Assembly (NCBI GenBank): GCA_012026655.1
Contig: JAAILG010000053.1
Location: 62,001 to 126,000, forward strand
Origin: Hydrolagus affinis
Lineage: Eukaryota
Direction of reading: 5' to 3'
Length of the DNA stretch: 64,000 bases
Shown here piece by piece: positions 1,912-61,089 of the stretch. A program made the position numbers and the translations under genes. Numbering within the stretch: the first letter of the stretch is position 1; each line of letters opens with the position of its first letter. The notes below the pieces were generated by a model that had not been told where the DNA came from, ran no database searches, and saw nothing but the letters and a program-made list of their open reading frames with translations.

Positions 1912-2183
1912 TCAAATGGGGAAATTGGTTGGCATTTCTCGAATTCTATTTTCCCTGCTCATCTTTTTCAGCTTCATTCTTCTGTTTTGAAACCAGATTT
2001 TGACTTGCCGGTCAGACAGATTCACGCCCCGGCTGATCTCCAGTCGGCGCTCTCGAGTCAAATACATGTTAAAGAGAAATTCCTTTTCCAGTTCCAGGGT
2101 CTGGTGTTTAGTGTATGGGCAACGCTTCTTCCTCCCGCCCTTCGGAGTCAGCCAGTTTATCGCATTCTCCGTCTTTGTGTGTT
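1912..2183 (-). CDS. hoxb10: Hoxb10 exon 2 (homeodomain)
   Basis: Reads [42 protein letters not shown]...[20 protein letters not shown], a paralog group 10 homeodomain and C-terminal tail. Acceptor TTTTTCCCGATTGACAG ends at 2184 (phase 1). Stop at 1914-1912. B-cluster identity comes from linkage to hoxb13. Confidence 0.93.
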
Positions 2184-5100
2184 CTGTCAATCGGGAAAAA
2201 CAAATTGTCAAATGGACTGCCGAATAAGAGTGTTCTTTCTTTATTTAACCCCAACAGCATCGTGACCCGAGATTCAAAAGGGTCTCTCGTTTGAGGAGGG
2301 GGAGAGAAGGGTCAATTAGCGTGAACCATCCGCGATTCTTCCTGTTTCAAAACTACAAGGTGCTGAACATCAAATTAGTGGAACCTATTTTTATTTTTCA
2401 ATCACACAGTTAGTTTGGTCCAGGGGAGTGTGTGTGTGTGTGTGTTGGGGACTGGGGTGTGGGGAGAAGAGAATTCTGTTGCGAGAGGGCCAAAAGTTGT
2501 ATACTTTGAACTTAACTCGAAATGTTTTCAAAATACATCAAGTCAGTGAACCTATAGTACTGTACATTAAAAGTTACTGAGATGAAATCTATTGTAATAA
2601 AATATCAATGAGAGAGAGCCTTTGTATATAGCCCTATGACAGCAGCCCTCCAAGTGAAATGAATGGATAGAACGTGCCGGAATCATTGTATATGTTCCTT
2701 CACACGCGGCCCATGCAGCCTAACAAAAGCAGGGCGTTAGTATAAATATATGTGTGTGTGCGTGTGCGTGCGCGCATAAAATAAACCTAAACTAATTGAT
2801 ATCGAAGCTGTATTTATCAGCGAAACCACATTGACAAGCATTATTCCTTTAGTGACTAATATCCATTGGACAATCATGTCACCCCCTTTTCTAACTGGAT
2901 GGATGCATTACCAAATAGCTTTTCTACACTGTGAGTTGTCGATCACGCGACAGTTGTTAGTGGGAAGGTTCTTTGCCTCCATGCACACAATAAGGAGTTC
3001 ATGCACTGAATTGTGCGGAGGTTATGATTTATACACGGATGGAATAATGTCGTTTTGAAATGGCAAGCACTCGGATACTTGGAACTGTTTCCTTTGGGGG
3101 AATTCCTCATCTTCTTACTTCCAGCTGCTCGTTTTTCAATTTGTAAAGTATCGATAGTTCCAAATAACACCCCCACCCCCCCCCCCCCCCACCACCCTCT
3201 CCCACCACCTCTTACACCCATTTATTCATCTTTTAATGGAAAGTTAGATGGTCAGATTGAAGTCTCTGTATTTAACGAGCGATGCACACAGGAAGCTGCA
3301 GGAACTGTCTCGCCGCAAAGTATCAGACTTACACAGCGATTGTTTGTTAATTGCCAAAGGAGTTGTCACAAATGGGCGCGAAAAGTTGCTCCACTAAGGT
3401 AATACACCGAATTTGTTTTTGTAAATGCGCTAAAAAAAAACTATGTCTTTATTTGCAAGCAAAAACACAAAATTTCTGAAAATCGGAGAGGCGTGTTAAT
3501 AGAGTGAGAACAAAATCTCAGGATTATAATTCAATGTCTATTAACCAGTCTTCTATGAAGGTTTTATGGTTACGTTTCAAATAAACTTTCATTGCTCGGT
3601 TTAGGTGAAAATTGACTGGATATAATAACGGTTAGGATGAAAAATAATGGATCTGATTATTGTAATGTCTTTGAATTGCAGTTTCAACAGGAGGAACGTT
3701 TAACATTTTGAGAAGAAATAAAGAAATAATGCAAATGTTCTATGTTTACCAAAGCAAACAATCCATTCCAGATTCTTCGTAAACGTCATCTTAAAAATCG
3801 ATCCTTATTGCGCAAAGGTGATATGTTGTGATCTAGTGATATGTCCACTACAGTGCCTTAGACCTGAAAACTAATTGAATGTTTTCACTTGTTACCATTG
3901 AATCACAAAACCAATACTGTTTTGTTTATAGAAACAATAAAATTAATATTTTTTTAAAAGGACGCAAGGAGCGAAGTATGAGTCTTGATTAGTTTGCTCA
4001 AGCAGAGAAAACAAGGACTTGCTGTATAACTGTATGATTCTACATCATAATAATACTCCTGCTCGTGTTCTGGTTAGCGGGAAACCAAATTCCAAAGTCA
4101 TTACATTAAGTATAGTATTACGAAACCCTCTGTATCAAATGAAATCTGATAATAATATTTCTGTGCTTTTAACCAATAAAGATTCACAATTATTACTGTA
4201 TGTACCAGCTAATAAACAGTATAGCTATTTTAATACCAGTTCACATTCCTACCTAGAAAATATAGTCGCAAACAATACAAGGAAAGTGTTGTGGTCCTCA
4301 AATTAATATTGTGTCTGGAAGGTCATACTTGCCATGCATTTCCTGGTTACACTCTCTTTCATTTTGGTCTCTAATCTTTCGAGGAAAGGAAAGAAATACA
4401 TTTCTCTGATACTGTAGTTGGTTTGAATTCTATCCACACTGATAATTTGTGTATTTGTGTATTTGCTATAATTCTTTGTTTCATTTTTGCAATTTAACTA
4501 AGCAACTTCTTAGATCAATGGCATGTGGCCTTTTTGAAATGCAGCAAATGGCAAAAGAAGGCCAAATGAAGAGCAGCAAGTTTGGAAAGAAATAAGCGAC
4601 CAAAAACGACTTCGTGGCTTAGTTTGAACAATAAACATGAATCAAACATATACCTTTACAAAGCTTGCTAATGGTCAATTGAGTAATCGTTCTTTTGTAT
4701 TGCTTTAAAATATGTTGAATCATATGTGTTTGAAAAGGCATTTGGTATTGCATGAGAAATGTCTTCACGCCAAACAGCAAAGGATAAGTTAGTATATACA
4801 GACTTTGGAGAATGCAAACCAGAACTTGCAGTATAAATGTGAGGGATTCAGTCCTCCCCCATCTATTTGACCATCTGATATAGCCCATAGATCCAATAAT
4901 TTTTAACCTGGAATTGCAATGAAGTGAATCTGAATCTGATTTAGTCTCGGTACCATTCGAATAAGGGGTCGATGCAGTTCATATAAAGCAACATATATTT
5001 GAAAAGAAAACAGCGTTTGGAATGCAAAAGCATTCGATTTTCTCTTACAAAATAGAAGAATATTTCACTCGGGGAATATTTATTATGAATGCCCTCTTTA

Positions 5101-6613
5101 AACAACTTTAAACACGAGGCATTTTTATTTTCTCCCTAATGCAGAATAACCAAGGAAAATATATTTGCATATTTTCATGAATAGGGAACCAAATTGTCAT
5201 CCTATTTCTATTGCAATACAATAATGATAGCTTAAATGGATATTGTATTTTTAAAATTGCCTTAATTCGTACCTTTAATATATTTTATGCATGTATATAA
5301 AATATTGATGACTTGTTGCATGAGCAAAATTTCAATACATTCTTGAAACAACTTTTAAAACATAACATTGAAACTTTGAGTTTTTAAATTATATTTTAAA
5401 TAATTGGTCTATCTTAAAAAAAAGTTAACAGACGCAATATTTTTCCGTAACTGGAACTTGTGACTACTAACTGAGTTTACCATGTCACTTCTGACTGTTT
5501 GGTTAACTTTATGTGTCGAGGTGCGAAGGAATAACGTAGCAAATAATTTTCAGCTTCAACAAAACACGATTTTCATTCGGTGCCTTAACAGAGCTCTTAG
5601 TAACAAACATAGATCGTGTAAATATTACAGGATTTAAATAAATTACATTCAGTATTCTGAAGATGCGGAATTCATTGATGCAATTTTTGGAATATACGAA
5701 AAATCCTTATACGTCGGGAAGACACCCAAAGCGCTTCAAATGATCTACTGTAAAGTGTAGTAACGCGACACTCAACTTGCGAACACCAATGTCCCACATA
5801 GCCATGAAGTGAACGACTTATTTTTTTTCCTGGGGGTTTGGCTCTGTTTTTATACATGCGTCAACTGATGAACTTGGGACAATTCCGTGCCTAAGACATG
5901 TTCAAGGAACATTGTTAGCCTCCACAGACCACAATACCAATGGCCATTGAAATATTACTGCCTATTTTCACTATTTTCTTTACCAAACGACCTAACTCTA
6001 AAACAAACGCTTAGTATTTTAGATAAATAGTCATTTAATTACACTCACATACATGTATGTTTCGTGTGCGATATACATGTAATCTTACACAGCCTGAATA
6101 TTAAATTACATTGAATTTGTAATCAGATATGATCTACATACACAATGATATTATTTTCACGCTTAGATAGATATGATACATATTCTTTACGTGCCACTAT
6201 CTCTGAAGCTGCTTTTGCTTGATACCTTAACTTTCATATGATAAAATATACTTTGAAGTTCTCTTTTCAAACACGTTTGCATTGATGAATGGCCTTTCTT
6301 TTTGCCTAGGTGGGTTGTTTATATTGGGGGCTTTTATGGCAGCCTCTAATGTCTAGAAATCAGTCACATTCAGAACAGAAACACTCCGCGGTTTTGATCT
6401 TTTAAAGAGTCGCTTAAATTAGGTTGTAACTTACCCTGACGAATGGGCCAGTACTATAAATTACCTCAGGTATTAATTTGAACATTGGGATCCTTGTGCT
6501 GAAGACAAAGACAGTTCATTGGGTCGCCTGACTACATTCACCTTGTTGCAGCCTTGTTATTACTGCAATTACCGTGTAATCGCTTGTCTTCCTCTCTTCC
6601 TCAGTTTACTCAC

Positions 6614-9130: not shown

Positions 9131-9161
<31 letters not shown>

Positions 9162-20040: not shown

Positions 20041-21265
20041 TAAAAGTTAAGGGGGAATGGAAAAGGATTTGTCTTTGACCTATATATTACCAATATCGTT
20101 AATAACAGAGCTGCGGCCCATAACTTCTTAAGTGAATTATTAAAATGTGCTACAGATCAAGAGATATATTGAAATCAGAATTCCTTAAAATATTGGTTAA
20201 ATAACAACAACAACAACAACAACTTCGATTTAACAAGTTCTTCTCCCAGTTCTGCACAATAATACAGACAATGTATTATTAAATAAGCTTGAATTTGTAT
20301 TTTCCAGTCGTATCATATACGAAGACATAGTAATAATGACTCAACTATAAATAATAATAACTTAACATTCATTCCAATATTCCAGGGAAATCTCGGAGTG
20401 GCGGTTTAACTTTGTTAAAAAAAAATCTTGTGTTGGAACTCACAAAAAAAAACCGTATTGGAAATGAAATAAGCATCAAAATTGAATTGGTTGAAATGTT
20501 TGCGCATAAGCAAGTGTATTTATTCTTTTACTTTATGAATTGATTTTGTTGCATTGAGTTGTTTAATTAACTGAAGGCTGAAGGGGACGAATGAGGTGAC
20601 TGTGTTGTGAATCTCCCAAATCAGATTCGGAAACAACATGTAGCCCAACCATTTTTATACTTTTTTCGTAAGTTTAAACATTTCAAATATATTAGTATCC
20701 CTTTGTACTGTAAAAAAAAGGAGTATAGAGCACACCCTTTCAATAGTAAACTGAAAAAAATATGCAAAGTGTGTTGTAAGTCGCTTGTTAATATATACTG
20801 CACCTTAAATGCATTTCAAAATTACTTTTCAGGTTAACAGTTAAGGCCTCGTTTGTTTTCAACTGTTGTAGCACACAACACAAAATACATTGGTATTGAT
20901 TTTAATAGCATACAATGGCCTTACTTTGCTTTGGTACACAGTTCAACTGAACTGCAGCCTCAGTGACATATAAAGTAATGTGAATAGAATGAAGTTAAAT
21001 TGCGCACATAGCACGTCTGTTTAGAAATATTTCAAAAACAATATGAAATACTTAATCGTTTAAATAGATGGATCAACAACTCCAGAAATGTTAATCTAAA
21101 GATTCTTCGATCGTTTCTCGCGGGTGGGGGAGGGGGGGTTGGAGACTACAGACACACACACACACACACGAATGATAGCTGTGTGTAGAGTGATTCATTT
21201 TATTGCAGTGGCCGACAGCTACGTTGCTATATTTTTCGAACCTGAAAGCAAATTTTCACCCAGTC

Positions 21266-22353
21266 ACAGCACTGAATATGTATCTGCCCTTTCTCTTTTC
21301 ACTCAGCGATTATTTGAAAGGAAACCTACTTACTTGCAATTACCTTCGGGTTCCCGGGTTAAAAGCTGCTGTCGTTTTCTCCTTTGTTTGTGCAGGCTCG
21401 GAAGAGCTTGATTTCTCTCCCACCCCCTCTCTACCGATTTGGTGTTTGTTAGCAGAGACTTTTTTTTGTCAGCTTGCAGTCTGTCCTCACATAAAATTGA
21501 CACAGACAGGCCATAAACTGTCTGGCTGCTGTGTACACGGCATGTAGAACGCCTACAGAAATACCTCTTTATATATTTAGACCCTCTCACAAACCTGCAA
21601 CCGAGAACATGATTTATTTCAATGCAGAATTAAATTTATGCTTTTTTTAAAAATGAAATCCTGTTATTTGTTAGCCGGTAAAGTTTACGAAAGAAGACCT
21701 ACAAAGAAGCATGGAACCATCCCTAGCTGTACATTGTACTTGATCATGGATGTGTTTGTGTGACTGCAAAGTTCAAGACGTCTTCAGATAATGTCAATAT
21801 TGTTTGGTTCAAAAATCCACATTCTGTTTCTTTTAAAAGCAAGGAGGGAAGGAAGGAAGATTTTGTTGCAAATTAACTAGCTCTGCTGGTGATTTGAGCT
21901 GTTTATTAGCGTATCCTGGAGGCAACACACCACAAATGGTTGAACTTCTCAAGTTTTTTTCCCCTTTCCTCTATTGTTTTTCCCCCCCGGAGTTCCTAAC
22001 CTTGAAACGGCTCCAGACTTAAAACTTATTCCCTGGGCGCATTCTCCTGTCGGATTTATTTGTCGCTCTGAGAAGCGTTTGAAAGCCACTCTTTACCACT
22101 CTTTGAGAATGTTTACCGTCCTGGTAACTCTGCTGACAATCACAGTCCAGTGAAGCCGTTTGTTGTTGGCGGCTGTTGACTCTGTGGTGGTTTGCTGATG
22201 GGTAGAGAAGTCCTTCGGGGATTTTTTTTCGGGGCAAACAAAGCTTTAGTGCAAAGATAATGAAATTTACTTCATTAAAGTCATGGGTTTTCTTGTCGGT
22301 TCATCAAGTTAGTTGGATGTGGCAGAATAAAAAGAAAACTAGACTGAATACAT
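21266..22353 (-). pseudogene. Decayed Hox11-type gene (putative hoxb11 pseudogene)
   Basis: Degenerate homeobox: AAA AAA AAG TCT CTG CTAAC AAA CAC CAA ATC ([11 protein letters not shown], 21467-21436); SLHKQRRKRQQL aligns ungapped to SVYINKEKRLQL (21398-21363); TTT CAA at AAT CGC TGA GTG AAA a GAG AAA (FQNRRMKEK, 21319-21290); an RDRLQYY-like tail to 21266. Upstream in order: MYLPSCTYY-like (22353-22327), PMT (22287-22279), EVxF (22273-22262), YxSA..HR (about 22204-22178), VGKNG/GFDRFFE-like (22099-22066). Confidence 0.7.
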
Positions 22354-25224: not shown

Positions 25225-26960
25225 TTCTCGGGTACTTACTGTTAGTTAGTGAGTACACACACATGCACATACTTCACATAAAAATACACACGCAAACAAA
25301 CACAAAATAGTCATTCGCATGCACATCACACATACATCACACAAACACATACATGCGCGTGAACATACACATAAAATTTAATATTAATAAAAATAACAAT
25401 ACCAATAACAAGCAAACACATATACAATCAGAGCACTTACACACAAAGGCGCATTCATCCACAATACTATTTTAGACACACAAATATCAACGCATCTTTT
25501 AGATAATATTCCAACCTTGCCCAGTCTCTCACAATGAGAATGCTGTTAGTTCATTACAGATGAATCGATCGGGAAGCTCAACTTCACTTTTACATATCAA
25601 TTCTGTAAGAAAGATTAGTAACAAAAAATAAATATTTGTTTCAAACCAGTGAACACTATCCTTTTTACTGCAGAATTCCCGAGAAAGCCCCAGAAAAGTA
25701 TAATTACGCAAAGTTTATGGGCGAGATTCGGTTAAAGTTTCTTTTAATAAGTGACCAATGTGAAAGAGCTCATATAATATGTATGAATGTTATAACGCTG
25801 TATGCATGCAGTATTTTGGGTTTACTTTGAAACTTTATGAGTGTCGTTTTTCACCTTCTTGGAGTTTTTGTTAATCCTTTAGAAAATGTTAAACCGACCT
25901 GAAAGAGACCCAACTTCCTTATGCAGATGAATTTACTTTAAATTTATAGCTTCCCAAATATGCGTAATCTCTCCGTGCATCCATGTTTGAAAATGTTAGA
26001 CAAAGACACATTTGTATCAGAGAAAAGTGACGTGAGTGTTAAACGATTCTTAGTTTTTCTAAAAGTAAATGATTTTTAAAATATATATTTGAACCTCTAT
26101 TTAGACAGCTATCCATGTTACAGATCGCTGCCAGAAATTATTGTGTGTCCAATATAAATAGGATTATTAATCTAATTTTATTGATATTGTTATTATTTTT
26201 TTAAGGCACATCAGAATACCATCCTGGGTATTTAACGGGAATACAGAGAATCTCTGAACCGAAATTCTGCATTACAAACTCTCCGATGTTGAAAGCTTGT
26301 TCATTGTATTGAGTAAATTAGAAAGTATTGCATTTCCATCTCTCTTTTCATCCCATCCCCACCATTCCCTATATTAATTTGAGTGCAATATGATACTTAG
26401 AATACAATAGAAATTCCCTTCTAGATGCAGTATAAAAGAGCAGTTAATGCAAAACAATCATATATACAGAAAATACATTTAGGCTATTCTACTTATTATA
26501 ATTACATACTTATGTTTCATTTTTGAATATTTCATCAAAATCTATTTTAATTTATAACATTAAACATAAAACGGTAAAACCGACAAACTGAATTCAAATT
26601 GAATTTCTGCAGACTAATGATTCAATGGTTGTTGCAATCAAAGTTATAAATGCGCCTCAAATCACTATTATCGAGGCACGTAAATAATGCTCCATCAGCG
26701 GAAACAAGACAGTATGGTTTGTCAAACTGCGGGAAAAATCCTGAACATTGATTAAATATTGTATTATAGAAGTTGCGCTTCGCCGGGAGATCACCTTAAG
26801 ATTATCAGTTATAAAGTCGCTGTAAACATTTTGACTTTTCAGCAATTTCCGGAACTGACAATTAATGCGAGAAAGTAATCGCAATTCACTTGCGAGGAGA
26901 GCTTTTGAACGGCAGAGGGCGCGCTAGTGCAGCGAGCTGCAGAACAAATGGAAGATTAAA

Positions 26961-27082
26961 CAAAACACAAAATACTACAGATGCTGGGAATCTGAAAGCT
27001 GGGGAAACTCAGCAGGTCAGGCAGCATCCATGGAGAAAGGAAAAAGAGTCAACGTTTCGGGTCTACAACCTCTGACGAAGGG
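26961..27082 (+). repeat. Chondrichthyan-type interspersed repeat (AAATACTxCAGATGCTGG...CTCAGCAGGTCAGGCAGCATC)
   Basis: Recognisable motif. Related decayed copies lie near 30470-30560 (-) and 31540-31595 (+). Confidence 0.5.
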
Positions 27083-27154
27083 TTGCGGAGAGCACTATAT
27101 AAATTGAACTTGTTGTTTTGGTTGTCTACTTTTGGCATCACGTTTTATGCTAAT

Positions 27155-38099: not shown

Positions 38100-39000
38100 C
38101 CAGTATGTGAACTAGTGAGAATACGCATTTGGGTTTGGAGAGACAGAGAGAGTATTTTGTATGAGAATGCATGTGTGAAAGAACATCTGGATTTTTGTGT
38201 GAAAACATTGATATATAATGTATGTACTGTCTACGTGAATAGATGTGTGATACAACACTTAAAGGGATTTTTCGATGACGTGATAAGTCGCTGTATCAAA
38301 TGCAACGGTTATTGTTTATTATAAGACAACACATACATTTGTGTGTTGAATTTACTTGTTATAGATGTGTGTGAGAGTATGTTTGCATAGTGTGTTACTA
38401 TACAGTATATGCTGCTCGTCAAACTGTGTTCAAGAGCATATGTGTGTGGATGACAATGGTGTGTCAGTGTGAGCCAATAAGTTAGAGAAGAGATGGGAGG
38501 TGGGGGGGGGGGTTGGGGGGAGAGAAGAGGTGAATATTTTGTCAGTAGTATCAAGTTAGTGTAATAATAAGTTTCTATCGGAGAGTGGTGAGTATGTGAG
38601 ATAGAATATCAGAGAACTATTGCAGTGTGCACCAATACCTGTGTATGAGTACAGATTTGTTTGTGAGAGACAGAATATGAATTCATGAAATAATAGGTCT
38701 GTGTGTGAGAGTAACTGTATGCTTCAGTGGATTTGTATGTGTCAGGAGAGGTTTGCAAGCGTGATATTGTGTTTATGTATGTAAGATTGTTTGTGTATGT
38801 AAGAACAGGTATGTTTTTGTCTATGTAAGTGGGTACAGTATATGAAAGAGAGAGAATGGGTGTATGAGTCAAGTTCTGAATGAAAAGAAGTGGATCAGTA
38901 TGTGTGAGAGTAGATTTTTAAATGTGAGTGTTTGTATATACGAATAATGTTTTGTGTGAGATTAATTTTGCATGTGAGAATTTGTGTGTTGGATAATGCA
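38100..39000. repeat. Degenerate TG/GA-rich low-complexity tract
   Basis: Recurrent TGTGTGAGAG / GTATGT units with no coding signal. Confidence 0.55.
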
Positions 39001-39854
39001 TTTCTGCATGCCCCAGGCATTTCTGCATGCCCCAGGTTCTTGAAATTCACCATGATGTCAAGCTTGTAAATCCCAGATATGCCTCATAGGCAGGTAATTT
39101 GGATGCATTCAGCGCATTATTCGCCAAACCGTCTGAAATCATTATTGTCTGTTCTAATATAAATAAATAATATATTGCATTTTGTACTGGGCGTTGATAT
39201 AAGCAGAGGTTTCACTGGAGAACAACAACCAATTGAAACTGACTAGGCCATGGTGAAGTATTGCATCTTAATAGAACCATATGAATGTGCAGGATGTGGG
39301 TTACCTATCATCAATGCCATTTATTTTGTAATTCCGCAACTTTCCATCATAATCCGTTACATCGTTTTCTGCTTTTCATAATAATTCTTGCAGTTAATAT
39401 AGTACCTTATATCAAATGCAAGGACTCCTCAAAGTGCTTCACGTAGTACAATGCAAAGTGGGTGCTTTTGCGTTTCACTTCACAAATTCAAATGTACAAT
39501 TGAACAGCTAAGTCGGAAGATTCTTCCATTTTGCCTACCTCACTCCAAAAAGTGTACTCCATATTATCTATTACAATAACATAGGCCCAAGTTCAAAACT
39601 GGTCTGCACCTTTTTTTTAAATCATGGAATTAAAAATAATACAATATGAAATTATATTTGGATAGTGCCATTCACATTGCGTGAACATTCCCGGGTACTG
39701 GATAATCAGGGACTCAACAGTCTGGTTTAGTAAATTGCTGAACATTTGATAAATTGCTGAAGTTTGTTTCTCTCTTATGTTTTCCATATTGCATATGTAG
39801 CTCCAAACAGGCCATTCATCCAAACTAGTCTGTGAAGGCGTTTTGCATCACACA

Positions 39855-39966
39855 TACTCTACCACCCCACCACCCCTGCCAACCACCCTCCACACCCACA
39901 CCACCCCCCACCACCCTGCACACCCCACCTCCCCCACCACACCTCCACCACACCCAAGCACCACCA
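39855..39966. repeat. C/A-rich low-complexity tract (G-rich on minus strand)
   Basis: Repeated CCACCCC units. Confidence 0.7.
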
Positions 39967-40284
39967 AAAATGCTTCTGTATATTTTGATAACTTCCGTTT
40001 CAATAAACTTCCATTTGGATTGCAGCATTGCTTGAAATATTATGAAAACAGATGTCTGTCTACGGGAATTGTACAGTATAAAAAGTTTCCCTCTCTTTCT
40101 CTCGCTGGGTGTACACTAATGAATGACAACAACAAATGGCATTTATATTGTGCCTACACAGGATAGTGTCCCAGAAAGCTTGATTCATAATCAATCATTA
40201 AATGCCCCTCAAAATCATAACCACTCCAAAGAAGTACAAGATTTCTGTCCCCACCATACATGGTGTGCTTATGTGTTTATAAAA

Positions 40285-40495
40285 AAAAATAATAACTTAG
40301 TCATCAACAACTGTAGTGGGACACAGCTGTACTCAATTAGCTGCCATATACAGTCAATTCACTTTACAGTAAATTCTGTGAAGCACTTTGAGACATCTAG
40401 AAGACGTGAAAAGCGCAACATCAAATGCACCATATTATATTGTGAAGCACTTTGAGATGTCTCAACAATGTAATAAGGCACTATATCAAATGCAA
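40285..40495 (+). mobile_element. SINE 3-prime fragment with doubled tail
   Basis: TGTGAAGCACTTTGAGA...ATCAAATGCA occurs twice in tandem. Confidence 0.75.
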
Positions 40496-43400
40496 TTTTT
40501 TTTTAACATGGCTTTATCTTATCAATCAAAACTTACATTTATATACCGCCTTTCAAGTCGAGAGGACGTCTCAAGACGTTGTACAGTCAGGTAGGGACAA
40601 GAGCAGGGGGTGGGGGGTGGGGGGTGGGGGGTCGGAGCAGGACGAAGGATGGTAGGAGAATCGACTGTATATTTATCCATTTGGATTGAAGTAAATTTCA
40701 TCAATCATTACCCTTTTTTCTTTTCTCTGTCAGTTTCATCTTTGTTATGATTGTGTCACATTTCTGTTAACAACATTAACAATATTAATTTTTTAATTAT
40801 TTTCCCCCCACACTCCTCTGATCCCGCCCCCCACCCCCTCCCCCCCCCCCCCAACCCCACCACCATCACCTCACTCCAATGGAAAAAACAATGAGAGGCA
40901 AATTTTATGATGAATGGCACTGTTTGCTTTCACAAACACATTTGTAGTTGGAATTGTGATGTTGGAATTGTTTGCTGTCTGGCACCATTAACTGATAAAA
41001 CAATGCTGCCTTGCATGTTACAAACTATTGCTGTGAACTATCCTATCTATCCATCATTTCCATATCAGCTTCTTATCCTCAATCCAAAGACATTGAGCAC
41101 ATAGGTTGAATAAGATGAGAGAGCCATCCCCCCCACCTCACCCCCCGCCACCCCCCACCCCCACAGGGAAATTAACCGACCTTATAATATTGTTTTAATA
41201 ATATACAGTTAAAAAAGAAAGATTGGGATCAGATGATTACAATAGTCAGATAATGACAGGAATACTTTATTCTGCTTTAGATGTTAATATAAATCTATTT
41301 GGGCAAGCAGCAAAGGAGCATTCATCTGTAACAAGGTTCATTACCTAGCAAATGTCACCTATTCAGAGAAGGCTGTTTATCTCCCAAAGGAACTTTCATC
41401 TTTACTTCCATTGGCCATTTTCCATTTTCTGACCATTTAGATCAGAGCCTTTTAGCGGATTATTTGTTGGATAATTTTGGTACAGTGGGACAGTAACATC
41501 TGTGGGAGTAGTGTCTTCAGAACATAAATTTTATTGCCAACTACCAAAAAGTGTTGCGTGTCCAATCTTCACACATACATTCTATCAACATGCTAAAGCC
41601 AACTGCTGATAACAACATTGAGGCACAATATTCCACGAGTACCAACCACAGTACCATTGCTTTCATAAGTAATAAGCCAAAAGACAAAATATTCAAAGCA
41701 GCAACACCTCTTCACCGATGGTGAAGAGATTTATATGTAAATCAGCTATTTCAAATCCTCTTTCACTTGGACTGATTGACTTCATTACAAAGCCAATAAT
41801 TGATCCATCAACCCAATGCTGTTATTTTAAAATCAGTTAAAATATATACAGACTTCAATAACCTGTCCATTCGTTTTTACTTAAAAGTGTATAAATGCCT
41901 GAATTGTATTGTTTAATAAAGTTTTGTTATGTAATTAAATGTATCTTCATTCCTATCTATCTTGCTTTCTTATTTTCTCTCCTCGTCTCTTTCCATTCTT
42001 TAATTTTTCCTCTTTTCTTTATCCTTTCTTCCCTTGCTTGCAACTTTGGTTTGTTTCTGACTTTTCTTGTTCTCCTTTCCCCTATCTTCCCATTGCTCCC
42101 TCTTATTTTCTCACACTTGCCAGTGATTACAGATGACTACAATTGCTTTTATTCACCAATTTTTTGTCACCCTCTGACATGCTGTTTAAGCAGAAACATC
42201 AATTGGTCAATGTATGGAAGCATTATCAGAATGATGTAACTTCTTTGAAATAAAATGATTAAATGAACTTTGCATTTGGTATAACATCTATAAAGTCAAA
42301 ACATCTCTTCACTGATCCCAAGTGTAGTGACTGTGTATTTGTATTGGTATGCAAGCTTTACATTAAGATTATTGCAATTTATTGGAGTTAGTACACATTT
42401 GGGCATAGCCATATCATTCCTAACTAGATTCCCCAGACTGTTTAATTTTAACATTGATTTTACAGTCTCTCCTGCTTTTTCCTGTCTGTTTTTGCGCACT
42501 AAAATTTATTTTCTTTTATGAAGGCGTGCAATACATTTTTGTCTTCTTACCAATTCATATTCTTTCTATCTCTTTCACTCTGTCCAATTATCTCTCCTCC
42601 TTGCTATCCAACATTTTCAGTGTTACTTATTTCAATTCATTTCCCTTTGAAACACTTAGCGGGCATTTATCCAAACATCAAAATAAGAAAATGTTTGAGG
42701 CGAAATAAAATGCCATGTTATGCACATGGGTGGTTTTTATTGAACTTATTTCCAGTGGTGTGAAAAATGAATATTTCATCTTCTATTTAGTTAATGAGTA
42801 AGCAGTAAAGTCTTTATCATTGTGCTGTGGAACATTGGCTGAACTCAATACCATACAGACTTTACTTATTGCATTCATTTAACTTGCTGAATACAACCTC
42901 GCTTTGTATTTGGCTACTCACCCTAACACTGTTTACTATGATCTGTATCTCTACTTCAAATGTTCCATGGAACAATTGGCCCCAATTACATCGGACATGG
43001 GAATTTCATCTGCGGAATGCAGCTAGTCATAGGTGAACATTGCAATATTGTTAAATTGATTATCTCGAGTTTATACTTGAACACTGAAAACACGGAATGA
43101 GACGAGGCCATCCGACACACGTGAAATCTGTCCTTTAGCAGAATAGACGGCCATTTCCCTCGATAGATGAACGTTCAGTACAAATGCTGCCCGCCCCTCC
43201 ATCCCCAAAGGTTAGTAACGAAAAATCTCAACAATATTCCTACATTTTCACATCATTATTCGACTCAGTCATCATTCACCACTCGCCTGCCGTGACGAGC
43301 TACAGTATCTCCTGATAAACTTTGGTGGCTTCAGAGAAATGCTGCACTCCCTCGGGAAGTAAATAGATTGCAAGGACTCAATGACAGTATAAATTATGTA

Positions 43401-44118
43401 TCACCCACTGCAATGAATGGACTGATCGATGGCTTTCCCTCATTCCACAGGTCTGCTTTCAGTCACATTCTTTCCAGCTGGCGTTGATATCTTGCTTGAT
43501 GCTGTAATATGCTTTTCGGGTTGAATTAATATCAATGTTCTTATCTTTTTGTGAAAAAAAAGCTGCTTAAGTGATGTAGAGAAATCAATGTGGTTATATA
43601 TTTTTGATTCAGCTGTAAACTTACATACATATCAGTTTGGGTTGATCTGTATCTCAACACCAAATTGAGTTTGCAGTGGAACCGCCCACTACTCCTTGTT
43701 TATATCGCTAAACATACATTGTATATATGGTTATATACACTTTTATTTAGCTGTACAGGCACTGACGGTCGGGGTGGTGGGGGGGGGGAGGTCCATTATC
43801 TCGGAGGGGCGAGCGAGTGGGGGTGCTTTTCTAAAACTCAGGAATGTATTGGGCATCCCGGGTCTTCGATTTTGAAATCAGTAGTGAAATAAAAGCTGAA
43901 TGACGAATATGAAAAAAAGGAAAAAAAATGGAAAGACTTTCCCTGGTACTGTTGCTGTTGCCATATCATAAAGTCTCACAGCACTTTACACTCAGTTTCT
44001 GTCAGGTGTAGTGACTGTGTTTGTGATAAAGCATGACACCCATGACACCCAAATTAAGCACAAGGCCTATTTATCTGGAGGATTATTGGTGAAGAAACTG
44101 GAAGAAAATATTTTTCAT

Positions 44119-44399
44119 AGTCTTATAGCTCAGTGGTTGGAGCACTCGCCTTACAAGTGAGAAACCTGGGAATGGAAGACCTTGGGCAAGTATATTTAGT
44201 CCACGTGCCTAACAATAATCCCTAAAAAAAATTATATTAAAAAAATTGGTTGATTCTGTTTACGCTGCTGTGAGCAATTGGCTGCTGAGTTTCGACCACA
44301 AATGTACAGTCAATTCACTTTACAGTATATTCTGTGAAGCAGTTCTAGATGTCTAGAAGATATGAAAAGCACTATATCAAATGCAAGAATTATTATTAT
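44119..44399 (+). mobile_element. tRNA-derived SINE, near full length
   Basis: AGCTCAGTGGTTGGAGCACTCGCCTTACAAG head and family tail. An opposite-strand tail fragment follows at about 44520-44575. Confidence 0.85.
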
Positions 44400-45064
44400 G
44401 ATGATGATCATTGTTATTATTGTTATTATAATGTCTTTACATCTATAAAGTCTAACTGATTAGACAGGCTGGATCTTGATTCAGCGTCTCACCCAAAAGA
44501 CACACAATAATCATCACCATCATTATCATCCTTGCATTTGATATAGCACTTTTCACGTCTTCTAGACATCTCAAAATTAATAAACTATTTTAAACAAGAG
44601 AACATATTCTATGAAATTCCAAATTTTAGCAGGATAATGTTAAGACTCTGAAAAATCAAAACAAATAAAATAAATTACATGTAATTCGACAGAAGACTGT
44701 GTCTAGATAAATTTTCTAGAAGAAACTAATAGAATCATCGAACAGAACTAGATCATTCAGCCCATCATGGCTGTACTCTCTGAAGACCAAACTGTCTCAT
44801 ACCTATTTATATATTTTCAGATGTTTCTCCAATTTTCATTTAAACTGGAATTGTTGGAGTCGTGCCCTATGACTATGTTAGGAAATCAATGCGAATATTT
44901 GTAAAGTGTTGATAAGAACAACAAGAAAAAAAATACATTTAGAACGCGTTTCAGTCGGGAGGACGTCCCAATGCGCTGGCTATCAATATAAGAACATTTG
45001 ATATATTGTGTCACTTTCCTCCTAATTTTTTGCAAATATCCTTTTTAAAAAATAAATGCTACTT

Positions 45065-45345
45065 TCTAGATCTCTGCCAATATACTCTGATATAGTCACT
45101 GCTCATGTGCTTATCCAATTTCCTTTTCAACAATACCATTGATTCAGCTCGTATAACCACCTGTGATGAAGAACTCCAAACGCTCACAATTCTCCGAATC
45201 AAGACATTCTTTTTAATTTCTCCCCCATATTTCCTGTTAACAATCGAGCAAACGATTCCCTTCTTCTTTCTCATCGATTCCACAACTAAAGGAAATATTG
45301 TGACCTTATCTTTCCTGTCATTCAAGTCAGCATATTGAACACTAC
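45065..45345 (-). mobile_element. CR1-clade LINE 3-prime ORF2 fragment
   Basis: RRIVSVWSSSSQVVIRAESMVLLKRKLDKHM resembles the CR1 ORF2 end RVVxxWNxLPxxVVxAxSxxxFKxxLDxxM. Confidence 0.65.
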
Positions 45346-46764
45346 GTTCATATTATTCAATCTCCTCTACTGTTAATCTTACATAATTTGGAGCAATAAT
45401 GGTGGGGGGAAAATATGATTTGATATAACATAGCAATAATTGATCAACTCGTACTTTGCAGCTGCTGGAATACCCCATGATTCTGTTCTAATTCAAATGC
45501 CACAGCTGAACTGTTAAACCTATTTTCTCTGTTATTTGTTGTTTCGCCTGCTGTGGCATTTCTTCAGCAGTTAGGTTTTGCGTTTCTTTGTAAATTTCCA
45601 TTTATTGAAAGGTTTTCCCAATTGAAACCATACCTGTGCATTGATAATCAAGACATTTCATATGGATAATATCTGCAGTACTGTCTCTAACTCATCGCTG
45701 GCGTTCTTGCTAGTGAATTTAGTGGTCTATTTATTGTAGATAGATCCGTAAGGATGTGATATATTACTACTTATATTTCAATCTTCATTCTTATGACACT
45801 TGTGATTAAATATGCATCTGAACGTTTCAATATATCTTCGATGAAATACGTCTTTCTATATACTAGCTTGATGTAACAATTAGACTATTTTTTAAAGATT
45901 ATACTAATGAATAATTAATGGTTTAGACGAAAGTTAAATTAACTATTCAAATCTTACATGACATACCAACATTGGATTAAAGTCCACCTCGGATGTGGAA
46001 ATTCAGACCTTCTCCTGTAATTGACCGGGTATTATTTATAAGACGCGTTGCATGCTTTCTAAATTACACTTTTGTAAATTTGGATCCCAAAAATGTAACT
46101 TGTTTTTGTCCTCTTATTTCGTCAAAGCAGCGTCAAATTTCCACAAGTATTTTTTTCGCGAAAATACTGCAAACAGAATACATGTCATGATTGACGGGAT
46201 GCAGCGCCTTGGAGCGCCAGCCTATGCTGGGAGGGAGGGAATGGGCACAGCTAAAGTCCTCTCTGTCTCTGGCAAACTGCTTGTTAAAAGCTTGGTGCCT
46301 CCAAACCACAGCGGGAGGGGAGAGGAAAATTCAATAAAATGTCACAAACCAACTATACCCACTTCCTGGGTTAAGGGGGTACTCGCCTTCGCTTTAGTCC
46401 CCAGGAGACTGGTAACCTAATCAGAACTCCAAGTGGAGCGTGTGTGGGGTGGTGGGGGGAGGGGGGGGAACGGACAGGGAAATTGAGCAAATCATATCCT
46501 CATATGAACTAAACTATACTGGAAGTTTCGGCATGATATGATCAATATCTCTACAAGTGGCGCTGACTCCATAATGCGGGAGAGTAAATTGAGTTAGTGT
46601 CAGACAATTATTACCACAAGCCCAGGCAGATACCCACTCTTTGTATCAGATTTGCGGAGAGAGAAGGGGGGTGGGAGTTTGAAGATTTAATTTTAATGCA
46701 GAAAATCAGCACAATTTGTTTTCCTGCGGAAATATAATTTATATTGTATTTAATTCACATCACT

Positions 46765-46902
46765 GTCGCTGCTTCGTGTCACCCACGAATATACAATCAA
46801 TTCACTTTAAAGGATATTCTGGGAAGTGTTTTGATATGTCTAGAAGACGTGAAAAGCGCTAACTGTATATTAATTGCAAGGATTATTATTATAATTATTA
46901 TT
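46765..46902 (+). mobile_element. SINE 3-prime fragment
   Basis: Family tail TCTAGAAGACGTGAAAAGCGCTA...TGCAAGGATTATT. Confidence 0.75.
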
Positions 46903-47019
46903 TTCACTGATACTGAATGAAAAAGCTCAAACCTGCAAGACCTAAATGCGACCCACTCAATTTCTGTCAGTTTCTATTAGCTCGGTGTTTTGTCAATTTG
47001 GTTGTAATAATCTGTAATA

Positions 47020-47332
47020 AATATTAATCCCTGCATTTGACATAGCGCTTTCCGCGTCTTCCAGACGTCTCAAAGCGCTTCACAGAATATACTGTAGAGT
47101 GAATTGGCTGTGTATTTGTGGGCGAAAACGCGGTAGCCAATTGCGCACAGCAGTGTTCCACAAACAGTCGTGGATTGAAATGACCAATTTATTATAGTTT
47201 TGGGGGGAGGGATTAGTAATCGGCGTGTGGAGTAAGAAAACTTGCCCAAGGTTTCGCCCTGACCTGCCTGGATTCGGACACAGATCTCACGCTTCTAAAC
47301 CGAATGCTCTAACCATTGAGCTACAGGACTCC
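47020..47332 (-). mobile_element. tRNA-derived SINE, full length, possible 10-bp TSD
   Basis: CpG-rich copy that looks young. GTAATAATCT flanks it at 47004-47013 and 47334-47343. Confidence 0.9.
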
Positions 47333-49254
47333 AGTAATAATCTTAACTTTTGAGATATTCTGTAATGTAATAATAAGGAAAAATAAGGAATAAATCCCGT
47401 GGGAAACTCGCTTTAATTGAATGTGATGTAATCCGTGTCTAGATCACTTTTTTTTAGGAAGTTTTAATTTATTTTCACAAGACTGAGTTGCACCCGGATA
47501 AGGTCACGTGTATAACATATTATACGGAAGCATCCATTTTCCACTTGCCACTTGCTGCAAAGTCGCCGCACAAAAAACAACCTTCAGAATCACAAAACAC
47601 ACATCTAAAATGTCCAAGAGGGTTATCTGTTTCACTAACCAGAAAATTACAAATATTTTAAAAAGTTAGAGCAGAATAGATAATTGAAAATAATATTTGA
47701 CTGTTGATGGTATAAAGGATTATTAAATTGAACTGCGTCTGATTGGTTTTCTGCCATTTTATAGGAATTGAACATATCGCTATGTTGCTGCCGTTTTCAA
47801 ATTTGCGACGATTCACTTCATTTATTAAACCTACAGTTTTACTTTACTTATTAAGAGTAAAGTTTTCCCAAAGTTCCAACACCATGCAGATATTTACCAA
47901 CGGATGCGGTTTTTATTTTCCCCAGAGAGGGAGAGGGAGAAAGAGTGGGGGGGGTGTGGTGGGTGGGGGGTGGTCAATTCTGCTTTCAGTTATGGTGGAA
48001 CAGATGGTTTCAAGAGAAAGTTATTCATTCTTTTGACATGCTCACCATGCAATGTCTGTGTGAACTGTCTGTTTCATCATCGGTTAGCGTCTATAAGCAT
48101 ACTTTGATAGTGACTCACTGATTTGACACCGAAATTGAGGTTATTTAATATCCAGCGATGTATTGACTGTACAAACTGCGCGGATCATAAGCGTGACTGT
48201 ATGGCGGCCTTAGTAAACACATGATGTTACGTGTCAAATTGTGCAATCGACTGTTTTATACAAGCTTTCTGTGGGTCAGGCGTGAAGGGCGCTAAATAAA
48301 TGCAAGATGCTGTTGTTGTCAGCAAGTCTGTCTGTCTTTGTGTCTGCCTATTTATCTGTCTGTCTCTGGCTGTTAAAAAGAAAAGGTGAAATGTTAAAAG
48401 CTGAATATCTGAAATATTGAGAATACACGATATATCAAGCAATAAACAGTCATCAGAATTAACGTTGCCCTATCTGCTTGACGAGCAAATCTATTTATAA
48501 TTTGTTTTAGAAGTGGGTTAAAACCGTGGGATCAGAATTCACCAACTTTAGGGAAAACACGGAGAACAGTCCCCGAGTTGAGACCATTCGGTCATCCTAA
48601 CAGCTGGTCATTTATCTATGTACTAACAAGAAATTCAATTTAAAATAACTAGATGTTAATCTTTCACTGCTCGATCCATCGTCTCCATATTATGCATCTC
48701 GATGTAATCATTCATAGATGATATTCACCGTTAGTTTGTTGTACGCAATTTTGCGGCTCAAATTATTTCCTAAGTGTTGTATCCCTCCTCAATATTACTA
48801 ACACCAAATGTTTGTGAGAAAAGTCACCGATATTTTCTGCGAGTTTTGAACCTGATTAAAGTATTGAATATATTTTTAACGGAACAAATTATGTTGCTGA
48901 TTCGTGACCTCGTGGATTTGAATAATTTTTTGAATTGTTTGTTTTCCACATTTCAGTGATAGGTGAAGTGTAGGGTGTGTAGGTAACGTTTGGATTAATA
49001 GAAACAGTCTGAAGGTTTGTTTAATAAAGAGTATGAAGGCATGATTACCCTTTGCCCTGAAATTGCCTTGATCCTCAACAAGTTTGTTCTGATTTTCAGA
49101 AGCTCTACTGCTCTATATTTAGCGAGTTAGATCGAATAACTGGAAATACTTGGCTTTTTATAAATTCTCACTTCGCCGAATCTAACAGGCAGTAACAGGT
49201 CATCGTTAACTTGATTATAGCGATTTATAATTTGGAAATCAGATTAGAATGACA

Positions 49255-49583
49255 ATAATAGTAATAATAATCCTTGCATTTCATATAACGCTTTTCACAT
49301 TTTATCCACGTCCTAAAGAGCTTCACAGAATGTAGTGTGAAGTGAATTGACTGTATATTTGTGGGCGAATCGCAGCAGCCAATTGCTCACAGCAGTGTCC
49401 CACAAACAGTCGTGGATTGAAATGACCAATTTTATTATTGTGTTTTTTTTTAGAGAGATTATTATTAGGCGTGTGGAGTAAGGAAACTTGTCCAAGGTTT
49501 CGCCCTGACCTGCCTGGATTTGAACACAGGTCTCCCCAGCTTGGTCTCCCCAGCTTAGCTAACCACTAAGCCACAGGAGCTCC
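49255..49583 (-). mobile_element. tRNA-derived SINE, full length
   Basis: Same family; the head carries a tandem duplication GGTCTCCCCAGCTT x2. Confidence 0.9.
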
Positions 49584-55077: not shown

Positions 55078-55325
55078 TTAAGTCGTGTTGCTCTTTACTT
55101 TGGCCACGATTTTCTTTTCTTTGACCCTCCTGTTCTGAAACCAGATGGTGATCTGTCGTTCGCTGAGATTCGTAGCTGCCGAAATCTTCCTTCTCTTGTC
55201 TTTTGTGATAAATTTGTTGGTTCCGTATTCCCTCTCCAGTTCTTTGAGTTGAACTTTTGTGTAAGGGATTCTTTTCTTCCTTCCACGGCGAAATTGACCA
55301 CCGTCCTGTTGGTGACCCACCACAT
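55078..55325 (-). CDS. hoxb13: Hoxb13 exon 2 (homeodomain)
   Basis: Reads [83 protein letters not shown] and AKVK are HOXB13-type residues. The acceptor is tandem CAGCAG (55331-55326). TAA at 55080-55078. Confidence 0.95.
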
Positions 55326-55659
55326 CTGCTGTGTGTAGGTTAGCCACGCAAAGAAAGACACATTAAAAAAAACTCATAGTAATTAAATTTTTTTTAACAG
55401 TATCTTTACCTTTTATAAACTCCCAGGGTTTAAAATTTAAAACAAAAAACGATTTGTTTCAAAATACAAATTTTCCGTTAGCGCTGCCACACGTATAACT
55501 ACCATACTGCAAGCTGCACTCGGCATATTTTCAGAAATAATTTCTGTTGCTGTTGATACCGATTTATTTTCACAACAAACAGGAGGAAGCGTGCGCCGAT
55601 CAGCGCCCGAGATCACGTTTCTTTACTACGAAATAACACAGAATCCGATTAATTATTAC

Positions 55660-59300: not shown

Positions 59301-59484
59301 TGGACAACGAAAGTTCCAACCTTAAATTGAGGACTGTGATTAGACTGTGGTTAGTAGAAGGTTGAGGGACGGGTTCTGGTGGTGGTGGGAGGGGGATGGC
59401 TTATGCGGGAGAAAGTTACGCCGAACTTGAGACAGAGGCAATTTAACACAGAGTGGCCTTTTTTACATACGGTTCAGACACGGC

Positions 59485-59505
59485 TGAAGGCCAAGGTCAA
59501 GGTTA
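59485..59505 (+). promoter_or_regulatory. Triple DR0 nuclear-receptor element
   Basis: TGA-AGGCCA-AGGTCA-AGGTTA. Confidence 0.45.
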
Positions 59506-59603
59506 CAGCTAAGAGTCTAGTCACTATGAGGCCTGTCATTCAGGTCCTTTTACAGTCCTGTCTGAGCCGCATCAAAACAAAACCCTTTGTCGCTTCAGTG
59601 ATT

Positions 59604-59644
59604 CTTTTCTTAGCTCAGACAACGATTCGGAAGCCAATAATGAC
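59604..59644 (-). pseudogene. Possible Hox14 last-exon (helix 3) relic
   Basis: GTC ATT AT TGG CTT CCG AAT CGT TGT CTG AGC TAA GAA AAG resembles VKIWFQNQRQKEKK, mostly by single-base codon changes. Order and strand are correct relative to 60971-61089. Confidence 0.35.
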
Positions 59645-60043: not shown

Positions 60044-60064
60044 AGAGAGAGAGAGAGAGAGAGA
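60044..60064. repeat. (AG)n microsatellite
   Basis: Seen directly. Confidence 0.9.
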
Positions 60065-60970
60065 AAAACAGCACTGATGTTTTTCAGTCATTCACTCAGG
60101 TACTGCCGACATTTTAATGTATCCTTACTTTTATTTTTGCGTGTGATGTATGTACGGTTCGGGTATAAATGTGTGCACTGTCAATGGCATGAGCCATTTG
60201 CGAATGTCTCAGTGTGTGTAAAGGAGTATATTTCTCTATGCTAGCTCCTTGCTAATTAATTATTGAATCAATTGTTGTACTGTCTTTGGGACACGATTAT
60301 TTGTGTTAGCAACTAACCGATAAGTGTGAGGTGAAATTGCTTAACGTGAAAACTTGATTTTTCCCAACGTTGCTTAGGAAGTTGGATCATGGCAATTTGC
60401 AATTGAAACTCAGAAAGGGTTAACAACGTAGCTGAAAAATGAAAGCACCCTTTTCCCATTGATAAATCACCCTCCATAACGCCGAATCACTGTTATAGTG
60501 CAGTTAATAACGAAATCTGGGAATGATCATCCAGCAAAAAATTGGCCTTTTTTTTCTTTTTTAGAAAAAGGTTTAGTTAGATGCATAATCTTATATATGC
60601 TTCGTGTTATAAATCCCGGTCTAAAGCCAGTTAATAGGCCCAATACTGTACACCAGTTAGATTGGAGTGGGGGCACATTGATATACGTTCTTCATTTTTT
60701 TGTCATGAAATGCGTTTTAATGTCGGCTTTCAAATTTAGAAAACGTGCCCGAACGCTCATCATAAACGACCCAGCTATACAACACAAACTAAATATTTGT
60801 TTCTATAAATAGACATCATGTCTCTTCCCCCAATGTCTGCTGCCGACATTTAACAGTTCTTTAGACTGGGCGGTTAGATTTATATATTGATATATACGAA
60901 ATCGAAAGCATCGGGTATCGAAAGCTGTTTGTGAAAAATATTCCAAGGAAGAAAAGAAAAACAAAATCAC

Positions 60971-61089
60971 CTGGTTTATAACCTATTCGATGCGACGTCG
61001 GGTGTTGACTCTAATGAGAATCTACAGAACCTCGACTGTTTGGTTATATTCTGCTGTCTGGTAGGAGAGCTCTTTGTGCCCAATTGCCC
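60971..61089 (-). pseudogene. Probable Hox14-type homeobox 5-prime exon relic (putative hoxb14 pseudogene)
   Basis: KSSPTRQQNITKQSRFCRFSLESTPDVASN aligns ungapped to remembered Hox14 KRIPYSKQQITELERAFEENRFLTPEIRQN (9/30 identities plus D/E and V/I). It is bounded by an AG acceptor and a CAG|GTGATT donor, as expected for the Hox14 intron after homeodomain Q44. It carries an in-frame TAA. Confidence 0.5.

What the first reader, a model, noticed from the sequence alone, without database searches (positions are those of the whole stretch)
1912..61089. Collinear series b10 - relic 11 - (relic 12) - b13 - relic 14
The intact genes and the relics share one strand and fall in paralog-group order. Inference: the ancestral gnathostome HoxB cluster had a complete posterior set, and the large b10-b13 gap is the site of lost genes later expanded by retroposons. 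Most SINE/LINE copies lie between 27 kb and 50 kb, while 1-12 kb and 50-61 kb are nearly free of them.
Basis: inference. Interest (0 to 1): 0.7.

Follow-up and report, generated by a model that had tools for sequence, protein, structure and literature searches.

The report
Decayed HoxB11 homeobox in a chimaera
Between the intact HoxB10 and HoxB13 genes of a chimaera-like fish lies a broken group-11-type homeobox, likely the fossil of the lost HoxB11 gene; no group-12 trace was found and the claimed group-14 relic could not be confirmed, so a complete ancestral set is not shown.

Summary
The window is the posterior HoxB cluster of a holocephalan: intact HoxB10 (7343-1912) and HoxB13 (56335-55078; exon 1 is 97% identical to Callorhinchus milii), both on the minus strand. 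An indel-tolerant profile scan finds one decayed homeobox between them, at 21479-21197 on the same strand. It scores 26.4 bits against group 11 (next best 3.0; reached by 0 of 200 decoy profiles and 0 of 150 shuffles). It has stops and frameshifts, and its 3' third is present twice, 74 nt apart. Standard nhmmer ranks it first among non-gene hits but not significantly (E 0.18-0.34), and no exon 1 was detectable. No group-12 relic rose above chance. The relic-14 candidate (61089-60960) could not be tested against a Hox14 sequence and failed proxy profiles; a HoxB14 pseudogene is already published for C. milii. The repeat pattern is confirmed (28 of 36 copies in 27-50 kb), but recognised repeats fill only about 11% of the gap. 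Verdict: a likely HoxB11 relic, not found in the papers searched. 'Complete posterior set' is not supported; group 12 was more likely lost before HoxA and HoxB split.

The parts
1912..2183 (-). HoxB10 exon 2 (homeobox, stop at 1912)
   Evidence: Pfam Homeodomain E 1.1e-21; spliced CDS open, 333 aa
6614..7343 (-). HoxB10 exon 1
   Evidence: 55% identical to Carcharodon HoxB10a, E 1e-81
21197..21479 (-). Decayed group-11 homeobox (likely pseudo-HoxB11 exon 2); stops in all three frames, about 15 indel events in the duplication model
   Evidence: 26.4 bits contiguous, 40.8 bits with duplicated 3' part; nulls; alignment
21266..21333 (-). First copy of the homeobox 3' part (recognition helix plus tail), contiguous with the 5' half; begins with a donor-like GT at the Q|V junction
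   Evidence: 12.3 bits, 1 of 1000 local shuffles
21197..21259 (-). Second copy of the homeobox 3' part, 74 nt downstream of the first
   Evidence: 15.6 bits, 0 of 1000 local shuffles; not directly similar to the first copy (1827 of 2000 shuffles score as well)
26957..49583 (.). Repeat-rich, CpG-depleted core of the b10-b13 spacer: a tRNA-derived SINE family, two L2-like 3' fragments and two further repeat families
   Evidence: 28 of 36 copies; CpG o/e 0.35 (27-36 kb) and 0.32 (38-43 kb) against 0.76-0.84 in the flanks; tRNA heads in Rfam. The label L2-like is recalled.
55078..55328 (-). HoxB13 exon 2 (homeobox)
   Evidence: Pfam Homeodomain E 1.9e-19; spliced CDS open, 308 aa
55660..56335 (-). 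HoxB13 exon 1
   Evidence: HoxA13_N E 1.4e-44; 219 of 225 residues identical to C. milii HoxB13
59453..59597 (+). Non-coding element paralogous to HOXA distal region HOTTIP_2, 3.1 kb upstream of the HoxB13 start
   Evidence: Rfam RF02041 42.6 bits, E 2.6e-9, model positions 236-374 only, below the gathering score of 80
59604..59644 (-). Weak recognition-helix-like stretch, possible last exon of pseudo-HoxB14 (unconfirmed)
   Evidence: Top minus-strand hit in 56.4-64 kb; reached by 4-17 of 200 shuffles with group 11-13 profiles and by 24-36 of 200 with the WFQNQR variant
60960..61089 (-).
   Evidence: 199-200 of 200 shuffles reach its score with proxy profiles; Atlas blank

Best explanation
The stretch at 21479-21197 is a broken group-11-type homeobox on the Hox strand between HoxB10 and HoxB13, likely the in-place remnant of HoxB11, while group 12 was likely lost earlier, before HoxA and HoxB separated. 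Shown: two intact genes; the degraded homeobox with stops and frameshifts; its preference for group 11; a second copy of its 3' part; repeat and CpG zoning. Inferred: after the A/B duplication HoxB11 was inactivated and decayed neutrally (score matches about 0.5 substitutions per site); an old tandem duplication of about 75 nt doubled its 3' end; the gene-free middle of the spacer was released from constraint, became methylated and took up SINEs and LINE fragments, while DNA next to the cluster and next to HoxB13 stayed CpG-rich and nearly repeat-free. The spacer itself likely persists to insulate HoxB13, as shown in mouse.
For: Group-11 69-residue profile: 26.4 bits at 21266, next best 3.0, plus strand 5.1; 0 of 200 column-permuted decoy profiles (Gumbel p 1.5e-4) and 0 of 150 100-nt-block shuffles (p 3e-5) reach it. 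HoxA11-only profile 25.8 bits, 0 of 70 shuffles, max 8.5; 63-residue profile 23.0 bits, 0 of 200, max 20.3. All four posterior profiles (groups 10-13) place their top minus-strand hit in the 47.6-kb gap at this locus. The 5' half prefers group 11: 15.8 bits against 1.1 (10), 3.6 (12), 5.4 (13) and -3.0 (9). It was also the top non-gene hit of the codon-level scan (27.7 against 22.5) and of nhmmer. Strand and slot are the expected ones, 13.9 kb from the b10 start. Duplication model 40.8 bits against 26.4 contiguous and 27.0 split; 0 of 100 shuffles, max 4.5. [(A,B),(C,D)] topology: PMC5054437, PMC10972751. Mouse spacer function: bioRxiv 2024.07.20.604409.
Against: nhmmer gives only E 0.18 and 0.34; tblastn and single-sequence nhmmer missed it. 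The nucleotide-level model was written after the codon scan had pointed to the locus, and about 60 profile/parameter scans were run. One shuffle reached 20.3 bits against 23.0 and one decoy 20.7 against 26.4. Each half alone is only borderline over the whole gap: 3 of 200 shuffles reach the 5' half, 7 of 200 the 3' part. No exon 1 was detected (86 of 500 and 470 of 500 shuffles). The two 3' copies do not resemble each other directly, and the duplication start was chosen after the fact from 10 options. A group-12 profile also scores the locus above all 100 shuffles in a shifted register (15.3 bits). Profiles rest on HoxA11 plus one partial HoxC11, HoxC12 only, and no HoxD11 or HoxD12. Absence of relic 12 could also be deletion or heavier decay (53-76 of 100 detected at 0.6, 11-24 at 0.8).
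Confidence: 0.72

Rival explanations
1. One reading: HoxB once had 10, 11, 12, 13 and 14; relics of 11, 12 and 14 all remain, and retroposons built the gap.
For: Relic 11 detected. A HoxB14 pseudogene is reported in C. milii (PMC3707753) and hoxb14 is counted in the gnathostome ancestor (PMC7269910). Repeats peak in the middle of the gap. A relic 12 decayed beyond 0.6 would often be missed.
Against: No group-12 signal above chance. Recognised repeats are about 11% of the gap. HoxA also lacks group 12. Recalled: the HoxC10-C13 span in mammals is about as long with both genes intact, so the gap length needs no special expansion.
Confidence: 0.12
2. The 21.2-21.5 kb match is a chance resemblance in purine-rich DNA, and there is no relic 11.
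For: nhmmer E 0.18-0.34; rare nulls reach 20 bits; no exon 1; my own by-eye matches at 15.5-15.9 kb and 24.6-25.1 kb failed when tested.
Against: Composition-preserving shuffles and decoy profiles do not reach the score; decoys score at most 9.5 at this locus. A second, separately significant copy of the 3' part lies just downstream (0 of 1000). Strand and slot fit.
Confidence: 0.13
3. HoxB11 had a split homeobox: the 74 nt between the Q|V junction and the second copy are an intron at the Abd-B/Hox14 position, not a duplicate.
For: [quoted passage not shown] That this shared intron lies at Q|V is recalled.
Against: The supposed intron itself matches the 3' homeobox (1 of 1000); split model 27.0 bits against 40.8; no AG at the needed place (nearest 12 nt upstream); a Q-V codon pair makes a GT by itself.
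Confidence: 0.06

Closest known systems
Callorhinchus milii HoxB cluster with pseudo-HoxB14 (Ravi et al. 2009; not read, known here through PMC3707753 and PMC5054437)
   Same: HoxB10 and HoxB13 intact; HoxB13 exon 1 97% identical; a group-14 pseudogene is expected upstream of HoxB13
   Different: Six of 225 residues differ, so likely another holocephalan; the review lists only two Hox14 pseudogenes (A and B) and has 0 occurrences of HoxB11 or HoxB12
In-place Hox pseudogenes: caecilian pseudo-HoxD12 (PMC4470032), bowfin and gar pseudo-hoxd14 (PMC8423624), sterlet pseudo-hoxd14 (PMC7269910)
   Same: Dead Hox gene left in its collinear slot with stops and frameshifts
   Different: Those have living orthologues in the same cluster of other species; by established knowledge no jawed vertebrate keeps HoxB11, and this relic is at the limit of detection
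Mouse Hoxb9-Hoxb13 spacer (bioRxiv 2024.07.20.604409)
   Same: [quoted passage not shown]
   Different: Here HoxB10 is kept and a coding remnant is detectable; insulation was not tested and CTCF-like motifs are not clearly enriched (5 against 2.13 expected, 7 of 100 shuffles)
HOTTIP conserved region 2 (Rfam RF02041, HOXA)
   Same: Core nearly identical, same side and orientation relative to the group-13 gene
   Different: Lies in HoxB; only model positions 236-374 match; no evidence of a transcript

Membership tests
Hox paralog group 11 (relic) | Homeodomain closer to group 11 than to other posterior groups | tested here: met
   Contiguous 26.4 bits against 5.1 (10), 15.3 (12), 10.6 (13); 5' half 15.8 against 5.4 or less
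Hox paralog group 11 (relic) | Same strand, slot between groups 10 and 13 | tested here: met
   Minus strand, 13.9 kb from the b10 start and 33.6 kb from the b13 stop
Hox paralog group 11 (relic) | Exon 1 with the conserved N-terminal region (Pfam PF12045 in the hits) | tested here: inconclusive
   Best candidate 25110-24670 reached by 86 of 500 shuffles; HoxA11-only profile, no power test for exon 1
Hox paralog group 11 (relic) | Phase-1 splice acceptor just before the homeobox | tested here: inconclusive
   AG at 21482-21481 fits phase 1 with one codon more than HoxA11; poor pyrimidine tract, no statistic
Pseudogene | Stops and frameshifts destroy the reading frame | tested here: met
   Stops in all three frames; 8 indel events in the contiguous alignment
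Hox paralog group 11 (relic) | Orthologous remnant in related species and DNA alignment to paralogous clusters | not testable with these tools
   No vertebrate DNA collection on hand
Hox paralog group 12 (relic) | Group-12 homeobox or N-terminus between relic 11 and b13 | tested here: not met
   63 and 37 of 100 shuffles for the homeobox; 23, 43, 25 of 100 for the N-terminus; power
Hox paralog group 14 (relic) | Three exons with split homeobox (PMC3509897) | tested here: inconclusive
   AG and GT flank 61089-60960; a weak last-exon candidate at 59644-59604
Hox paralog group 14 (relic) | WFQNQR motif (PMC8423624, PMC3509897) | tested here: inconclusive
   The motif variant scores the candidate lower than group 11-13 profiles: 24-36 of 200 shuffles
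Hox paralog group 14 (relic) | Similarity to Hox14 exon 2 | not testable with these tools
   0 stored proteins carry the motif; proxies fail; Atlas blank; supplement search blank
tRNA-derived SINE | tRNA-like head and a 3' tail shared with a LINE | tested here: met
   Rfam tRNA at 47259-47330, 35166-35237, 44119-44174; the LINE-fragment profile hits the SINE tails; same design as the major C. milii SINE (PMC1845163)

The most novel reading that the evidence does not exclude
HoxB11 was still a working gene in the last common ancestor of living jawed vertebrates and died separately in cartilaginous and bony fishes; the chimaera keeps its fossil, with a doubled recognition helix, while HoxB12 never existed. 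This adds a gene to the reconstructed ancestral Hox set and orders the losses that opened the HoxB spacer.
Probability: 0.25. Interest if true: 0.65.

Novelty: new member of a known kind. Interest (0 to 1): 0.45.

Why it matters
HoxB11 is known only as an empty slot. A physical remnant would be direct evidence that HoxB carried a group-11 gene after it split from HoxA, and would show that the insulating spacer below HoxB13 arose by decay in place rather than clean deletion. A relic of 11 with none of 12 fits the [(A,B),(C,D)] duplication order, with group 12 lost once in the A/B progenitor. The coordinates make the timing of the loss testable by comparing chondrichthyan genomes. It changes no mechanism, so the interest is moderate and confined to Hox cluster history.

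Tried and rejected
tblastn, blastn and nhmmer with the window's own homeoboxes: no relic. Pfam on three frames each of 15.3-16.5 kb and 60.5-61.4 kb: 0 of 6 hit. tblastn with 8 Hox11/12 proteins: no relic. A by-eye relic-11 candidate at 15.5-15.9 kb scored 13 bits, background level: rejected. A by-eye exon 1 at 24.6-25.1 kb: 86 of 500 and 470 of 500 shuffles: not supported. Relic-12 candidates: 51.9 kb (24-26 bits in the codon scan with group-13 profiles, but 8.2 in the nucleotide model, and no group-12 hit), 49.4 kb and 36.6-36.8 kb: rejected. The group-11 profiles had one row shifted by a residue; those scores are discarded and redone. The profile search returned groups 10 and 13 and fused models, no Hox14. 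ESM Atlas on the relic-14 frame: blank. Rfam at relaxed thresholds over 7.4-27 kb and 46-55 kb found no Hox-linked family. CTCF-like motif enrichment not significant. Predicted structures and complexes were not run; they do not bear on a pseudogene.
Full report
Identity of the window. Six-frame motif search finds two intact homeoboxes, both on the minus strand. The gene models are HoxB10 (exon 1 7343-6614, exon 2 2183-1912) and HoxB13 (exon 1 56335-55660, exon 2 55328-55078); both spliced frames are open. HoxB13 exon 1 matches C. milii HoxB13 at 219 of 225 residues and shark HoxB13 at 81-82%; the group-10 exon 1 is 55% identical to Carcharodon HoxB10a. So this is the posterior HoxB cluster of a holocephalan, likely not C. 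milii itself (inference from six differences).

Method. The finding gives no coordinates for the relics. Ordinary searches found none. I collected named HoxA11, HoxC12, group-10 and group-13 proteins and built two scanners: a codon-level aligner that allows frameshifts and a nucleotide-level profile HMM that blurs back-translated columns by a neutral distance d and sums over indel paths. Nulls were dinucleotide shuffles in 100- or 300-nt blocks, column-permuted decoy profiles on the real sequence, the plus strand and reversed sequence. Only 12-16 of the roughly 75 HoxA11 hits and 11 of the 120 HoxC12 hits were used, chosen as named and spread over taxa.

Relic 11. In the 47.6-kb gap one locus stands out, ending near 21266 on the minus strand. 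The HoxA11 profile gives 25.8 bits, next best 4.9; 0 of 70 shuffles reach it, max 8.5. A 63-residue group-11 profile gives 23.0; 0 of 200 shuffles, max 20.3. A 69-residue profile gives 26.4, next best 3.0; 0 of 200 decoys (max 20.7, Gumbel p 1.5e-4) and 0 of 150 shuffles (max 14.7, p 3e-5). Group 10, 12 and 13 profiles also put their top hit here with lower scores, and the 5' half is specific to group 11 (15.8 bits against 1.1, 3.6, 5.4 and -3.0 for groups 10, 12, 13 and 9). All frames have stops. Against this: nhmmer ranks it first among non-gene hits but at E 0.18 and 0.34; each half alone is reached by 3 and 7 of 200 shuffles; the model was written after the codon scan had flagged the locus; and about 60 scans were run. 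Simulated decay of the window's own homeoboxes, scored with paralog-only profiles, gives such scores at about 0.5 substitutions per site (medians 25.3 and 31.9), so the relic is near the limit of detection. No exon 1 was found: the best candidate, 25110-24670, is reached by 86 of 500 shuffles.

The doubled 3' end. The recognition-helix segment occurs twice, at 21333-21266 (1 of 1000 local shuffles) and 21259-21197 (0 of 1000). A duplication model scores 40.8 bits, against 26.4 for a contiguous homeobox and 27.0 for a split one with a random spacer; 0 of 100 shuffles reach it. The start of the duplicate was picked after the fact among 10 columns. The copies are not alike directly (1827 of 2000 shuffles), so the duplication would be old. 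An intron reading is possible, since a GT sits at the Q|V junction, but the spacer itself matches the homeobox and there is no AG at the needed place.

Relic 12. Outside the relic-11 locus the best group-12 homeobox scores are reached by 63 and 37 of 100 shuffles and the N-terminal scores by 23, 43 and 25 of 100. Detection in simulation was 90 and 97 of 100 at 0.5 substitutions per site, 53 and 76 at 0.6, 11 and 24 at 0.8. A relic as well kept as relic 11 would probably have been seen; an older, deleted or fragmented one would not. HoxA and HoxB are sisters (PMC5054437, passages; PMC10972751, passages), and HoxA has no group 12 (established knowledge). One loss in their progenitor is the simplest reading, and then HoxB12 never existed. 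This step is inference.

Relic 14. A pseudo-HoxB14 is reported for C. milii (PMC3707753, passages and section 11), and hoxb14 is placed in the gnathostome ancestor (PMC7269910, passages), so this part of the claim is known for a close relative. I could not obtain a Hox14 sequence. The stretch 61089-60960 has an AG before and a GT after, but group 10-13 proxies score it below 199-200 of 200 shuffles; a last-exon-like stretch at 59644-59604 is reached by 4-17 of 200, and by 24-36 of 200 with the Hox14 motif taken from PMC8423624 (passages). Both stay unconfirmed. Next to the latter, 59453-59597 matches the HOXA element HOTTIP_2 (E 2.6e-9): a real inter-cluster peak, but non-coding.

Repeats and CpG. 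28 of 36 merged copies fall in 27-50 kb, 1 in 1-12 kb and 0 in 50-61 kb (self-BLAST agrees). The main family has a tRNA head and a LINE-like tail, like the major C. milii SINE (PMC1845163, passages). CpG observed/expected is 0.35 and 0.32 in 27-36 and 38-43 kb against 0.76-0.84 in the flanks and at 36-38 kb, which suggests methylation of the spacer core (inference). Recognised repeats are 5,435 of 47,735 gap bases, about 11%, a lower bound because the library came from the window. Repeat enrichment of this spacer is already described in mouse (bioRxiv 2024.07.20.604409, passages; its supplements were closed) and repeats upstream of HoxB9 in frog (PMC4470032, passages).

Novelty. Searches for HoxB11 or HoxB14 with pseudogene gave 0 papers. 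'hoxb11' anywhere gave 11 papers, 10 listed; spelling variants and hoxb12/hoxb14 gave 11, 10 listed. I read passages of two of these; neither reports a remnant, and the rest were seen as listings only and concern other topics. Broader searches were seen as listings, with passages read in PMC3038165, PMC12952989, PMC10927551 and PMC3509897; none mentions one. The primary C. milii cluster paper (Ravi et al. 2009) and most subscription papers were not seen and could contain it.

Verdict. The series is partly real: b10, likely relic 11, b13. Relic 12 is not supported and relic 14 is unconfirmed here though expected. The relic shows that HoxB held a group-11 gene after the A/B split; it does not show when the gene died. 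Interest 0.45, a new member of a known kind.

Noticed in passing
window 59453-59597 (+): Paralog of the HOXA element HOTTIP_2 upstream of HoxB13 (E 2.6e-9), with a nuclear-receptor-type half site in its core; an A/B paralogous non-coding element.
   Followed up: partly
window 26909-26922, 15751-15764, 53226-53239: CTCF-like motifs (consensus recalled); the one at 26909 sits at the edge of the repeat-rich, CpG-poor zone. Overall count not significant (7 of 100 shuffles).
   Followed up: partly
window 36001-38000: CpG-rich island (o/e 0.84) inside the CpG-poor spacer core; may be a constrained element. It holds the best, non-significant, group-12 N-terminal hit (36654-36773).
   Followed up: partly
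window 50902, 53332, 63471 and 16 shorter sites: TCAAGGTCA occurs 3 times against 0.47 expected and AAGGTCA 16 times against 8 (mononucleotide expectation only); clustered at 53316-53340 with an E-box.
   Followed up: no
window 19766-20039: Single-copy SINE-like element unlike the main family; identified by eye, no second copy in the window.
   Followed up: no
window 34689-35867: Three SINE copies packed in alternating orientation, one split in two hits.
   Followed up: no
window 21505-21520 (-): A TTTATGG motif about 30 nt upstream of the relic's possible acceptor; such motifs are recalled as Hox/Cdx sites in Hox introns, but the motif is not enriched in the window.
   Followed up: no
window 15862-15386 (-): A 159-codon stop-free frame in a CpG-rich stretch with no Pfam or Hox match; function unexplained, possibly chance.
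   Followed up: partly
proteins P0208, P0125, P0128, P0130: Public gene models that fuse neighbouring Hox genes (A11-A10, C13-C12, C11-C10, group 10-9-8), two of them joined right after the Q|V codon junction; likely annotation artefacts.
   Followed up: no
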